Origin: an uncultured archaeon
Lineage (GTDB): Archaea; Aenigmatarchaeota; Aenigmatarchaeia; QMZP01; JACQNV01
DNA: 64,000 bases
Direction: 5' to 3'
NCBI GenBank assembly: GCA_964410585.1
Contig: CAYPFW010000002.1
Location: 78,207-142,206 of the forward strand
Within the stretch, counting starts at the first letter, position 1; the number at the start of each line of letters is the position of its first letter. This document shows positions 13,394 through 16,105 of this stretch, piece by piece. A program made the translations under genes and the position numbers. The notes beneath the pieces are model-generated. The model saw only the letters and a program-made list of their open reading frames with translations, was not told the DNA's origin and did not search any database.

Positions 13394-16105
13394 ATGAAAT
13401 GTCCTTTTTGCAGTCATCCAGAAACAAAGGTTATAGATAAAAGAGAGTCTGAAGAAGACTCAAACAGAAGAAGAAGGGAATGCCTTTCATGTGGCAAGCG
13501 CTTCACAACATACGAAAAGCTTGAGTTAAGCTCATCCAAAAAAGTCGACAAATTAGTGAAAAGAGATGGAAGAATAGCTGATTTTGATGCCTCAAGAATA
13601 GAGTCTGCAATTTTCAAGGCAGCAAAGGCAGTTGGTGGTACTGATAGAGAAAGGGCAAAAAAACTAGCAGACGAAGTAATGGAGCAAGTCAACAAAAAGT
13701 TCCTAGGGAAAAAAGACCTCCCAACAGTAGAAGACATCCAAGACATTGTTGAAAAAGTCCTCATCGAAAATGGTCATGCAAAAACAGCAAAGGCCTACAT
13801 CATTTACAGGCAAGAGCGTGCAGAGCTAAGAAATGAAAAAAGAAGAATCTTGGAAAAAGAAGATGTTGACGATGTTGACAAAGTTTTCGACCTAAATGCA
13901 CTTAGAGTTTTGAAATCCAGATATTTGCGAAAAGACGAAAACGGCAAGCTAATCGAAACCCCAAAGCAACTTTTTACTAGGGTAGCAACACATGGAGCGC
14001 TTCCAGATATTTTGTATGACCCTCAATTATACGACATCTCAAAATCTCAGCAACAGCACCCAAAAGAATCTTTCGATCCAAAAACAAACCACGAAAAATA
14101 CAGCATAGGAAAATACAAACTAAACCAATATCACCTGGATGCTTTCAAAAGAATGTATGATAGGTTCAACAAAAATCACCAAATGAAATTCTCATGGTCC
14201 CAGGTTTTGGAAAAGCTTTCAAAAGGTGAACTAAGTTCTTATGAAAAAAATATCACAGAGTTCTATGACATAATGGTCAACAGACAGTTCATGCCAAACA
14301 CACCGGCTATAGCTAATTTTGGAACAGTTCTAGGAATGGGCTCTGCTTGCTTTGTTTTGGGAATAAGAGACTCAATAGACGATATAATGGAAAAATTAAA
14401 ACATGCAGCAGTCATCTTCAAATCAGGCGGCGGAGTCGGCTACAACTTCTCACACCTAAGGCCTGAAGGCGATTTGGTTTCTTCAACATGCGGTCTTGCA
14501 TCTGGTCCCTTGTCTTTCATGTCTATGTTCGACAAAATGACAGAGGTCATCAAACAAGGTGGTATTCGCCGAGGCGCAAACATGGGAATAATGAACTCAG
14601 ATCACCCAGATATTGAAAAATTCATAACAGCAAAAGCAGGCAACAAGGCCTTCAAAAACTTCAACATCTCAGTAAATATCCAACCAGACTTTTGGCAATA
14701 CTATGAAAAAAATGAGCCCTATCCTTTAAGAAATCCAAGAGACGGAACAGTTGTCAAAACAGTTAATTCACGGATGCTTTTTGACAAAATAGTTTACCAG
14801 GCATGGGAATCAGCAGAGCCAGGAGTCATCTTTTCAGACAAAGTAAATGAATACAATCCTTTATACGAATCAATGGGCCCAATTGAAACAACAAATCCTT
14901 GCGGTGAGGTACTCTTGTATCCAAACGAGTCATGCAACCTAGGATCAATAAACGTCTGGGCTTTTGTCAAAGAAGATGTGGATGGAAATGTTTCCTTTGA
15001 TTGGGAAAACTTAGCCCGCGTCTCTCGGTTAGGAGAAAAATTCCTGGACAATGTCATCGAAGTAAACAAGTGGCCTCTACAAGACATAGAAGACATGGCC
15101 TTGAACACAAGAAAAACAGGCCTTGGTGTCATGGGAGTTGGCGACCTTTTGTATGAATTAGGTCTTCCTTATAATACAGATGAAGGCAGAAACTTCATGG
15201 AGAGGCTGATGGAATTTGTCAACTTCTACTCAAAAGTCGAAGGCATCGAACTTGCAAGAACAAGAGGACCTTTCCTATACTACGACAAAAGCTTCTATTC
15301 TGAAGGTAAGCTTCCTTTTGCTGGTTTCTACGACAAAAAATCCTGGAGAATGGACTGGAACCAAATAGTCGACGGCGTCCAAAAACATGGAGTAAGGAAT
15401 GCATTCACAATTGTCGTCGCTCCAACAGGATCAATATCAATGATAGCAGGCTGCTCTTCAGGCATTGAACCTGTCTATTCTTTGGTTTTCGAGAAAAATG
15501 TGAAAGTCGGTTCCTTCTACTATGTGAATCCTATATTCGAAAAATGGATGAGAAGAGAAGGCTTATTCGACGAAAAACTAGTAGAAGATGTAAATGCAAA
15601 CAAAGGAACAGTCAGAAGAGTCGGCTATATTCCAAGAAAATTCAAGGAAATGTTTATCACAGCAATGGACACAACGCCAGAAGACCATATAAGAGCCTTG
15701 GCAGCATTCCAAAAATGGGTTGACTCATCGATCTCAAAAACAAACAACTTCCCGGCAGATGCAACAGTTGAGGATATGAGACAATCTTATCTCCTTGCAT
15801 ACAAGCTAGGATGCAAAGATGTAACTGTGTTTAGAGACACATCAATAAAGGACCAGGTCTTGGTTTCAGGCGTTAAAAAGTCTGAAAAACACGCAGCTGA
15901 CACTGGTTTGAAACCTCAGTTAGGAAAAGAATGGACACCAGAACAACCAATAGCAGTTTCAACAAGTGGTAGTTTCTACCAACAACCAAAAGTAACTACA
16001 AACTTTGGGGAAAAGCCAAAAGTCTGCCCATCTTGTGGATCTGAAACCAAAAGAGAAGAAGGCTGTGTATCTTGCCCTGGCTGCGGTTGGGGCATGTGTA
16101 GCTAG
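13394..16105 (+). CDS. nrdJ: Class II (adenosylcobalamin-dependent) ribonucleotide reductase NrdJ with an N-terminal NrdR-like zinc ribbon plus ATP-cone and a C-terminal zinc ribbon
   Basis: N-terminus [19 protein letters not shown]...[16 protein letters not shown] matches the NrdR Zn ribbon; ATP-cone ([19 protein letters not shown]). Catalytic core hallmarks: NPCGE (nt region 14881-14941), the LGSIN context, and the C-terminal CPSCGS...CVSCPGCG ribbon. Length 903 aa. Confidence 0.85.
   Translation: [903 protein letters not shown]

What the first reader, a model, noticed from the sequence alone, without database searches (positions are those of the whole stretch)
13394..16105. Class II RNR fused to an NrdR-like N-terminus (zinc ribbon plus ATP-cone), with two identical palindromic boxes in its own 5' region
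The first 45 residues ([41 protein letters not shown]) are nearly identical in pattern to the zinc-ribbon DNA-binding domain of the bacterial repressor NrdR. They are followed by an ATP-cone and then a complete monomeric NrdJ with its own C-terminal CxxC...CxxC ribbon. The 400-bp upstream region contains two perfect copies of the palindrome TATAACAcTGTTATA (13043-13057 and 13146-13160). This raises the possibility that the enzyme carries its own NrdR-type nucleotide-sensing DNA- or RNA-binding module and autoregulates, rather than the zinc ribbon being purely structural.
Basis: partly seen in the sequence, partly recalled or inferred. Interest (0 to 1): 0.6.

Follow-up and report, generated by a model that had tools for sequence, protein, structure and literature searches.

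The report
Ribonucleotide reductase fused to its repressor's DNA-binding domain
An archaeal enzyme that makes DNA building blocks carries the DNA-binding zinc ribbon of NrdR, the repressor that normally controls such enzymes, and its own promoter holds a textbook pair of NrdR binding sites, so the enzyme probably switches off its own gene.

Summary
The ORF 13394-16105 is real. It encodes an NrdR-type zinc ribbon (Pfam PF22811), one ATP-cone, a dimeric-type class II reductase (NrdJ) and the known C-terminal zinc finger. The organism is a DPANN-like archaeon. The two TATAACACTGTTATA copies are real too, but they are not NrdR-like and are absent from every related locus, so they stay unexplained. 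They are the only matches to the bacterial NrdR-box consensus in the 64 kb. All nine other independent loci that encode this ribbon plus an RNR-type cone (mostly fused to class III NrdD) also have tandem boxes upstream. The ribbon keeps the DNA-contact residues (D15, R17, RRRR), and the boxes keep the critical C4 and G13. The cone is RNR-type, not NrdR-type. Archaea with a free nrdR place it immediately upstream of a cone-bearing RNR gene, so the fusion looks like an nrdR-nrdJ operon that lost NrdR's own cone. Autorepression by the enzyme is the best reading (about 0.6). A separate NrdR elsewhere in the genome cannot be excluded. I found no published description. The class II version appears only here and in two fragments.

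The parts
13394..16105 (+). Gene for the fused protein: NrdR-type zinc ribbon, ATP-cone, class II ribonucleotide reductase (NrdJ, dimeric type), C-terminal zinc finger; 903 aa
13394..13516 (+). NrdR-type zinc ribbon, residues 1-41 (CPFC...CLSC; K12, D15, R17, RRRR 25-28, R36, RFTTYE)
   Evidence: PF22811, 62.5 bits. Aligns from residue 1 with S. coelicolor and E. coli NrdR. 60-75% identical to ribbons of true NrdRs. Contact residues invariant in 13 fused relatives.
13556..13822 (+). ATP-cone, residues 55-143, of the RNR type rather than the NrdR type
   Evidence: PF03477. 65% identical to the cone of the unfused DPANN NrdJ in L005 and about 23% to NrdR cones. The model superposes on the 5olk cone at 1.9 A.
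13886..15829 (+). RNR all-alpha domain and ten-stranded barrel, residues 165-812, with catalytic motifs SACFV, TNPCGEV and ESCNLGS
16013..16102 (+). C-terminal cysteine-rich zinc finger with a redox Cys tail (known feature of most dimeric class II RNRs)
   Evidence: Sequence; PMC5704485 and PMC9669993
13280..13295 (.). NrdR box 1, ACACAGTATCTTGTGT (2 mismatches to the consensus ACACWATATATWGTGT)
13311..13326 (.). NrdR box 2, ACACAATATCTTGTAT (2 mismatches); 15-bp spacer from box 1; ends 67 nt before the ATG
   Evidence: conserved in the closest relative L084
13251..13261 (+). TATA-box-like element TTTATATATAA, about 24 nt upstream of box 1. It would place the transcription start inside box 1 (inference; no TSS data).
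   Evidence: Sequence; comparable A/T-rich elements 20-40 nt upstream of box 1 in most other fused loci
13380..13385 (+). Shine-Dalgarno-like GGGGGT, 8 nt before the ATG
   Evidence: Sequence
13039..13057 (.). Not shown to belong to the system; function unknown.
13142..13160 (.). Second copy of the 19-nt repeat. Not shown to belong to the system; function unknown.

Best explanation
The gene encodes a working class II ribonucleotide reductase that has taken over the DNA-binding zinc ribbon of the RNR repressor NrdR. It most likely arose from an archaeal nrdR-nrdJ operon in which NrdR's own ATP-cone and the short gap between the genes were deleted, joining the ribbon to the reductase's own N-terminal ATP-cone. 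SHOWN: the domain architecture; the retention of NrdR's DNA-contact residues; a canonical tandem NrdR operator (13280-13326, 15-bp spacer) in the gene's own promoter; the same operator upstream of every related ribbon-plus-RNR-cone gene examined; and the nrdR-then-RNR gene order in other archaea. INFERRED: ribbons from oligomerised enzyme molecules bind the two boxes, which lie at or just downstream of the predicted archaeal TATA box and start site, and so block transcription of the enzyme's own gene. The single ATP-cone, on binding dATP or ATP, would set both catalytic activity and the oligomeric state that allows DNA binding. One sensor would then control both enzyme activity and enzyme synthesis.
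For: (1) Pfam PF22811, ATP-cone and RNR domains lie in one uninterrupted ORF. The ribbon-cone junction is reproduced in independent assemblies: P0121 (91% identical) and L084/P0117. (2) The ribbon aligns from residue 1 with solved NrdRs. The residues that contact DNA in S. coelicolor NrdR (R12, D15, R17, RRRR, R37; PMC9110341) correspond to K12, D15, R17, RRRR and R36 here, and these are invariant in 13 fused relatives that are only 53-61% identical overall. (3) The NrdR-box consensus with up to 3 mismatches matches only twice in 64 kb on both strands, at 13280 and 13311. The 15-bp spacer lies in the optimal 15-17 bp range (PMC12051234). None of 300 Markov shuffles of the window gave any pair. 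(4) The same detector found pairs upstream of all related ribbon-plus-RNR-cone genes with enough upstream DNA: L001, L002/3, L004, L085, L087, L088, L253 and L254. L084 starts inside box 1 but keeps both boxes. Across 837 kb of loci, every pair lay less than 200 nt upstream of an nrd or nrdR gene. (5) In 15 boxes, A3, C4, A8, T9, T11, G13 and T14 are invariant. The spacing of C4 and G13 matches the two G:C pairs whose mutation abolishes binding in S. coelicolor. (6) Negative control: L032 has an unrelated ribbon fused to cone-NrdD and no boxes. In L252 the neighbouring cone-less nrdJ operon has no boxes. (7) Origin: free nrdR ends about 6 nt before a cone-bearing RNR gene in L005 (DPANN), Bathyarchaeia and Thermoplasmata. 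The window's cone is 65% identical to the L005 NrdJ cone and 23% to NrdR cones. (8) The window has no second NrdR ribbon, and the other fused loci have none either. (9) In the fold search the whole N-terminal model matches NrdR structures best, and the cone alone matches RNR cones that tetramerise with dATP (5olk, 8p28).
Against: There is no experimental evidence. Only 64 kb of the genome is visible, so a free-standing NrdR elsewhere cannot be excluded, and free NrdR does exist in at least one DPANN genome (L005). NrdR's DNA-binding tetramer depends on contacts made by its specialised two-site cone (PMC9110341). An RNR-type cone attached to a roughly 100-kDa enzyme may not give the 80-A geometry needed to reach both boxes. 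The single-chain model says nothing about oligomers, and its linker is disordered. The family is rare, and several members sit on short contigs or look chimeric (P0113, P0117, P0267). The transcription start is inferred, not mapped.
Confidence: 0.6

Rival explanations
1. The boxes are real NrdR operators but are bound by a separate, free-standing NrdR encoded elsewhere in the genome. The fused ribbon would then be redundant or serve only as a dimerisation or structural element of the enzyme.
For: Free NrdR exists in archaea, including one DPANN genome (L005). Only about 64 kb of the genome is visible. In NrdR the ribbons form the constitutive dimer interface (PMC12051234), so a purely architectural role is conceivable. 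Apparently free-standing ribbon-plus-RNR-type-cone proteins (P0128, 146 aa; the P0118/P0123 type) exist in related lineages.
Against: In 9 of the 10 archaeal loci with a free nrdR, it lies directly upstream of the RNR gene; in L046 it is about 4 kb upstream. In the fused loci that position is taken by the fusion. No second ribbon occurs in the window or in any fused locus. A structural ribbon would need only its cysteines, yet D15, R17, RRRR and RFTTYE are invariant, and the ribbon is the best-conserved part of the module. The unrelated ribbon in L032 shows what a non-NrdR ribbon looks like, and it comes without boxes.
Confidence: 0.25
2. One reading: the two TATAACACTGTTATA palindromes are the operator recognised by the fused ribbon.
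For: Two perfect 19-nt copies lie 103 nt apart in the same intergenic region and occur nowhere else in the window.
Against: They have 7-8 mismatches to the NrdR box and lack the C4 and G13 arrangement. They are absent from all 86 nrd-related loci, including every fused relative. The 44 exact metagenome matches are single copies in about 25 unrelated contexts with no nrd gene. A 103-nt spacing is far beyond the three to four helical turns that NrdR tolerates. A canonical operator already lies closer to the gene.
Confidence: 0.03
3. The ribbon and boxes are a recent evolutionary relic of a fused nrdR-nrdJ operon and no longer regulate anything.
For: The class II fusion is seen only in this window and two close fragments, so this particular fusion could be young.
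Against: The same module and operator persist in diverged lineages (Woesearchaeota, Aenigmatarchaeota and others, 53-61% identity) fused to a different RNR class, with invariant contact residues and invariant box core positions. In L084 the boxes are conserved while the adjacent leader has diverged.
Confidence: 0.07
4. The ribbon binds RNA (for example its own leader) and regulation is translational.
For: The leader 13327-13393 folds into a hairpin reaching the Shine-Dalgarno sequence (z = -2.7), and L084 folds similarly.
Against: The ribbon is a close NrdR homologue with the DNA-contact set, and a canonical double-stranded DNA operator is present. There is no Rfam match, the hairpin rests on only two sequences, and alifold gave essentially no consensus.
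Confidence: 0.03

Closest known systems
NrdR, the free-standing bacterial repressor of ribonucleotide reductase operons (S. coelicolor 7P37; E. coli 9FVR, 9FXK)
   Same: The N-terminal zinc ribbon belongs to the same Pfam family and has the same DNA-contact residues. It is followed by an ATP-cone. Tandem 16-bp palindromic boxes with the same consensus and a 15-bp spacer lie in an nrd promoter. Autoregulation has a precedent in nrdRJ operons.
   Different: This is not a free 140-220 aa protein but the N-terminus of a 903-aa enzyme. The cone is RNR-type (23% identical to NrdR cones, lacking the VAYLRFASVY C-terminal signature). The host is an archaeon with TBP/TFB-type promoters. NrdR is described as rare or absent in archaea.
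ATP-cone-bearing dimeric class II RNR (NrdJ; for example the unfused DPANN NrdJ in L005; catalytic core as in T. maritima 1XJE)
   Same: The cone, all-alpha domain, barrel, catalytic motifs and C-terminal zinc finger are collinear. Identity is about 60-65% with unfused archaeal NrdJs.
   Different: About 45 extra N-terminal residues form an NrdR ribbon. The closest unfused NrdJs lack it.
nrdR-nrdJ / nrdR-nrdD operons (S. coelicolor nrdRJ; archaeal loci L005, L015, L017, L030, L038)
   Same: The order of parts is the same: boxes, ribbon-coding sequence, RNR. The boxes lie upstream of the ribbon-coding start.
   Different: There, two separate proteins each have their own cone. Here there is one polypeptide with one cone.
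Bifunctional enzyme/repressors that regulate their own pathway (archaeal RbkR, PMC5397151; PutA and BirA from my own knowledge)
   Same: Works like them: an enzyme carrying a DNA-binding domain, with operators in its own promoter, and DNA binding expected to respond to the enzyme's ligands.
   Different: No homology. The DNA-binding fold (zinc ribbon), sensor (ATP-cone) and pathway are all different.
Ribbon-cone-NrdD fusions in DPANN archaea (P0114, P0116, P0122, P0124, P0125, L004)
   Same: The same N-terminal module (53-61% identical) and the same upstream tandem boxes.
   Different: The catalytic part is class III (glycyl-radical, anaerobic), sometimes with inteins. The window's protein is class II (B12-dependent).

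Membership tests
NrdR (TIGR00244; free-standing RNR repressor) | N-terminal zinc ribbon with two CxxC motifs (Pfam PF22811) | tested here: met
   62.5 bits against a cut-off of 27.2, residues 1-41; aligned from residue 1 with 7p37 and 9fvr
NrdR (TIGR00244; free-standing RNR repressor) | DNA-contact residues: R12, D15, R17, RRRR motif, R37 (S. coelicolor numbering) | tested here: met
   K12, D15, R17, RRRR 25-28 and R36; invariant in 13 fused relatives
NrdR (TIGR00244; free-standing RNR repressor) | NrdR-class ATP-cone, and a whole-protein match above the family cut-off | tested here: not met
   TIGR00244 scores 67-71 bits against a cut-off of 124.65, covering only profile positions 1-97 of 147. 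The cone is 23% identical to NrdR cones and 65% to an RNR cone. The cone alone superposes best on RNR cones.
NrdR (TIGR00244; free-standing RNR repressor) | Free-standing protein of 140-220 residues | tested here: not met
   903-aa continuous ORF
NrdR (TIGR00244; free-standing RNR repressor) | Tandem NrdR boxes about three helical turns apart in nrd promoters | tested here: met
   13280 and 13311, 15-bp spacer, the only consensus matches in 64 kb; 0 of 300 shuffles; the same in nine other fused loci
NrdR (TIGR00244; free-standing RNR repressor) | dATP/ATP-dependent oligomerisation and DNA binding | not testable with these tools
   Needs purified protein (EMSA or MST, SEC-MALS, cryo-EM)
Dimeric class II RNR, NrdJ (TIGR02504 NrdJ_Z) | Whole-protein score above the curated cut-off | tested here: met
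   690.9 bits against 399.95; best PDB match is T. maritima NrdJ 1xje, E = 9e-111
Dimeric class II RNR, NrdJ (TIGR02504 NrdJ_Z) | Catalytic thiyl-radical Cys motif (NPCGE) and redox cysteines | tested here: met
   TNPCGEV, SACFV and ESCNLGS read directly in the translation
Dimeric class II RNR, NrdJ (TIGR02504 NrdJ_Z) | C-terminal cysteine-rich zinc finger (present in most dimeric class II RNRs) | tested here: met
   [26 protein letters not shown] at the C-terminus; feature described in PMC5704485 and PMC9669993
Dimeric class II RNR, NrdJ (TIGR02504 NrdJ_Z) | Adenosylcobalamin-dependent activity | not testable with these tools
   Needs an enzyme assay
   68.6 bits against a cut-off of 340.05, partial match only

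The most novel reading that the evidence does not exclude
In this archaeal lineage no separate NrdR exists. The reductase is itself the nucleotide-sensing repressor of its own gene. One RNR-type ATP-cone then governs both catalysis and transcription, showing that NrdR's specialised cone is not needed for box binding, and giving a natural intermediate that links allosteric and transcriptional control of dNTP supply.
Probability: 0.5. Interest if true: 0.75.

Novelty: new variant of a known kind. Interest (0 to 1): 0.62.

Why it matters
The NrdR field stresses that one mobile domain, the ATP-cone, controls RNR at two levels in two separate proteins: enzyme activity and gene expression (PMC12176259). 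Here the two levels appear merged in one polypeptide, in archaea, where NrdR is said to be rare or absent. If the fused enzyme binds its own operator, it would be a new self-regulating enzyme. It would also be a compact solution for reduced DPANN genomes. And it would offer a direct experimental test of two questions: whether an RNR-type cone can drive NrdR-style DNA binding, and how the repressor and the enzyme's regulatory domain are related in evolution. It would also show a bacterial-type operator working on an archaeal promoter.

Tried and rejected
(1) Exact look-up of the window protein in public assemblies: not on record. (2) The genome scan with the ribbon+cone alignment was swamped by cone-only RNRs. 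(3) The ribbon-only homolog search returned only short NrdR fragments and gave no architecture information. The 1-160 search was also dominated by fragments. (4) The palindrome as an nrd motif: 0 of 86 loci. Metagenome 19-mer hits are unrelated. The 15-mer is common in viral contigs, and two viral contigs with two copies were not followed up. (5) Rfam on the intergenic region and on the L085 leader: nothing. (6) Origin by recombination inside the cones was rejected, because the whole cone is RNR-type, so the junction lies between ribbon and cone. (7) A second box pair upstream of the neighbouring nrdJ operon in L252: none. (8) The consensus fold of the leader from two sequences gave essentially no consensus. 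(9) The C-terminal domain of P0118 has no Pfam or PDB sequence match. (10) Whether a free NrdR exists in the same genome could not be tested with these tools.
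Full report
OBSERVATION. The ORF 13394..16105 (+) encodes 903 aa with the quoted N-terminus. Pfam finds Zn_ribbon_NrdR (PF22811; residues 1-41; 62.5 bits, cut-off 27.2), an ATP-cone (55-143), the RNR all-alpha domain (165-313) and the RNR barrel (317-812). NCBIfam places the enzyme in TIGR02504 NrdJ_Z (690.9 bits, cut-off 399.95) and not in the monomeric RTPR family (68.6 bits, cut-off 340). The best solved relative is T. maritima NrdJ, 1xje, E = 9e-111, which is a dimer (my own knowledge), so 'monomeric' is wrong. 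The C-terminal Cys-rich tail is the zinc finger already described for most dimeric class II RNRs (PMC5704485, PMC9669993). The two TATAACACTGTTATA copies are present at the stated coordinates. They are 19-nt perfect direct repeats 103 nt apart.

ORGANISM. The window is archaeal. It encodes glycerol-1-phosphate dehydrogenase, RNase P component 4 and ribosomal proteins S19e and L31e. It also has an 87-nt tRNA-Lys gene, about 10 nt longer than a standard tRNA, which may reflect an intron; I did not test this. GC content is 36.6%. The nearest RNR homologues carry source names such as 'archaeon', Nanoarchaeia and Woesearchaeota, which suggests a DPANN-type archaeon.

The repeat finder reports a second pair, AACACArTATCTTGT, 31 nt apart at 13279 and 13310. 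A search with the bacterial NrdR-box consensus ACACWATATATWGTGT and up to 3 mismatches finds only two matches in the 64-kb window on both strands. They are 13280-13295 (ACACAGTATCTTGTGT) and 13311-13326 (ACACAATATCTTGTAT), each with 2 mismatches. The spacer is 15 bp, inside the optimal 15-17 bp range measured for four NrdRs (PMC12051234). None of 300 Markov shuffles of the window gave any pair, even at a looser threshold. With only the invariant core (..AC...AT.T.GT..), this is again the only pair in the window spaced 29-34 nt apart. Box 2 ends 67 nt before the ATG. A TATA-like TTTATATATAA (13251-13261) lies about 24 nt upstream of box 1, which would put the transcription start inside box 1. 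This last step is inference, because no start site has been mapped.

THE RIBBON IS A TRUE NrdR RIBBON. It aligns from residue 1 with S. coelicolor and E. coli NrdR. It is 60-75% identical to ribbons of real NrdRs from archaea and bacteria. In S. coelicolor NrdR, the contacts to the DNA backbone are R12, R26-29 and R37, and D15 and R17 read the conserved G:C pairs (PMC9110341). The window protein has K12, D15, R17, RRRR 25-28 and R36. These residues, plus N24 and RFTTYE, are invariant across 13 ribbon-plus-cone proteins that are otherwise 53-61% identical. An AlphaFold model of residues 1-160 (pLDDT 80, linker 44-48 disordered) matches NrdR structures best over its full length (9fxk, 9fvr, 9gex, 7p37; probability 1.0). 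The cone alone superposes best on RNR cones (5olk at 1.9 A and 39% identity; 5im3; NrdD cones).

THE CONE IS THE ENZYME'S, NOT NrdR'S. The cone (residues 51-150) is 65% identical to the cone of the unfused DPANN NrdJ in L005. It is 54-58% identical to the cones of fused NrdDs and only about 23% identical to NrdR cones. TIGR00244 (NrdR) scores 67-71 bits, below its cut-off of 124.65, and covers only the first two thirds of the profile.

ORIGIN. In archaea that have a free nrdR (L005 Nanobdellati/DPANN; L015, L017 and other Bathyarchaeia; L030 and L038 Thermoplasmata), NrdR has the canonical cone (..VAYLRFASVY..F). In the five such loci where I read the junction (L005, L015, L017, L030, L038), its stop codon lies a few nucleotides before the start of an RNR gene whose product begins with an RNR-type cone. 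The window protein is what results if NrdR's cone and the intergenic gap are deleted in frame from such an operon. Because the whole cone is RNR-type, the junction lies between ribbon and cone, not inside the cones.

COMPARATIVE TEST. A detector was run over 837 kb of fetched loci. It required two 16-mers with at most 4 mismatches each, at most 7 in total, and 30-33 nt start to start. Every pair it found lay less than 200 nt upstream of an nrd or nrdR gene, including the bacterial positive controls. All related loci that encode the NrdR ribbon plus an RNR-type cone and have enough upstream DNA carry a pair:
- L001/L252, Woesearchaeota nrdD, 31 nt start to start.
- L002/L003, Aenigmatarchaeota nrdD, 32 nt.
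- L004, nrdD with an intein, 32 nt, with one perfect box.
- L085, ribbon-cone plus an unknown domain, 30 nt.
- L087, nrdD, 31 nt.
- L088, 32 nt.
- L253, two pairs.
- L254, 30 nt.
L084, the closest relative (87% nt identity), starts inside box 1 and keeps both boxes, while the leader downstream has diverged. In 15 boxes, A3, C4, A8, T9, T11, G13 and T14 are invariant, and the palindromised consensus is ACACAATATATTGTGT. There are two natural controls. In L032 (Hadarchaeota) an unrelated ribbon, lacking D-x-R, RRRR and RFTT-E, is fused to cone-NrdD, and no boxes are present. In L252 the cone-less nrdJ operon next to the fused nrdD has no boxes. The operator therefore travels with the gene that encodes the NrdR ribbon.

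RARITY AND PRIOR KNOWLEDGE. An exhaustive HMMER search of 1.84 billion cluster representatives lists its best 150 hits. About a dozen of them match from residue 1. The long ones are all class III: P0122, P0125, and P0124 with inteins. The class II fusion appears only in this window and in the fragments P0121 (91% identical) and P0117/L084. The closest NrdJ homologues, at about 60% identity, lack the ribbon. The specialist papers I read describe NrdR as a free protein of 140-220 aa that is rare or absent in archaea. They describe the ATP-cone as restricted to RNRs and NrdR. A dedicated survey of RNR extensions mentions no N-terminal ribbon. The library has no hit for 'NrdR-like', PF22811 or Zn_ribbon_NrdR, and none of the top-ranked papers on DPANN lineages mentions NrdR. 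Pfam and NCBI pipelines already label the domains on some of these proteins, so the architecture is visible in databases. I found no description or interpretation of it.

MECHANISM (INFERRED). RNR-type cones of the 5olk and 8p28 kind pair up on binding dATP and turn dimers into tetramers (PMC11226230). NrdR ribbons act as pairs, one pair per box, 80 A apart. The most economical model is that dATP-driven oligomerisation of the fused reductase both inhibits catalysis and presents two ribbon pairs to the two boxes at the start site, shutting off its own transcription, while ATP reverses this. I put about 0.6 on autorepression by the fused protein. The main rival, at about 0.25, is a free NrdR elsewhere in the genome with the fused ribbon playing a structural role. 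I could not test that rival because only 64 kb of the genome is visible.

THE PALINDROMES. They are real and not due to chance, but they are not NrdR boxes (7-8 mismatches). They are absent from all 86 nrd-related loci. Exact 19-mer copies elsewhere are single and lie in unrelated contexts. They contain a TATA-like TATATAA and could be a promoter or a site for another regulator. L084 is too short to test whether they are conserved. They remain unexplained.

VERDICT. This is a new variant of the NrdR system in which the repressor's DNA-binding domain is fused to the enzyme it controls. It is rare, archaeal, and apparently undescribed.

Noticed in passing
window 13039-13057 and 13142-13160: Perfect 19-nt direct repeats CATATATAACACTGTTATA (core near-palindrome, contains TATA-like TATATAA), unique in the window and unrelated to NrdR boxes. 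On the minus strand the segment they bound folds better than shuffles (z = -2.8), mainly because the two repeats pair with each other. Function unknown.
   Followed up: partly
window 13327-13393: The leader between box 2 and the ATG folds into a long hairpin that reaches the Shine-Dalgarno GGGGGT (z = -2.7). The diverged leader of the closest relative (L084:45-112) folds into a similar shape with different inner-helix sequences, but alifold on two sequences gave no usable consensus. It may be a translation-modulating hairpin.
   Followed up: partly
window 12252-12491 (+): Glutaredoxin-like protein with a CPWC motif (YruB family, weaker NrdH match), 900 nt upstream of the reductase. It is a plausible electron donor for the RNR's C-terminal cysteine tail. 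No NrdR box lies near it.
   Followed up: partly
window 12595-12996 (+): Receiver-only response regulator (133 aa, no output domain) directly upstream of the 397-bp intergenic region.
   Followed up: no
L032:5965-8193: A Hadarchaeota NrdD has a different N-terminal zinc ribbon (MRCPKCGH...CPRCG, no NrdR contact motifs) fused to its ATP-cone, with no NrdR boxes upstream. This is an independent ribbon-cone-RNR fusion of unknown role.
   Followed up: partly
L085:3789-5044 (P0118; also P0123): The same NrdR ribbon plus RNR-type cone is fused to an unidentified domain of about 200 aa (no Pfam or PDB sequence match). A Maf gene follows, and the neighbourhood resembles that of the Aenigmatarchaeota fused nrdD (L002). 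It has its own box pair and a GC-rich 166-nt leader with no Rfam match.
   Followed up: partly
L253:1413-1542: Two tandem NrdR-box pairs (1413/1445 and 1496/1527) lie upstream of one ribbon-cone gene, like the distal and proximal pairs described for Listeria nrdAB.
   Followed up: no
L004:6001-9471; P0124: Ribbon-cone-NrdD proteins interrupted by inteins with LAGLIDADG endonuclease domains (1157 and 1443 aa).
   Followed up: no
P0139 (179 aa): An NrdR with two tandem, identical zinc ribbons before the cone. It may be an assembly artefact or a true duplication.
   Followed up: no
L015, L017, L019, L021, L023, L045: Bathyarchaeia free NrdRs have a variant ribbon (..TLETRDS.., RRRK instead of RRRR), and the canonical box detector found no pair upstream. 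This suggests a shifted operator specificity.
   Followed up: no
L099 and L100 (around the 19-mer match): Contigs with 53-55% GC carry two or three adjacent ATAACACTGTTAT-type palindromes, which looks like an operator for some unrelated regulator. Viral contigs L185 and L188 have two copies of the 15-mer 133-155 nt apart.
   Followed up: no
P0113/L088, P0117/L084, P0267/L254: Ribbon-cone N-termini continue into unrelated sequence (transmembrane-like tails, or an AP-endonuclease-like domain) on short contigs. These are probably assembly chimeras or truncated variants, and they should not be counted as separate architectures without checking.
   Followed up: partly
window 16641-21129 (+): Two large Cys-rich, signal-peptide and C-terminal-anchor proteins (419 and 1047 aa) lie directly downstream of the reductase gene. 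They are probably cell-surface proteins.
   Followed up: no
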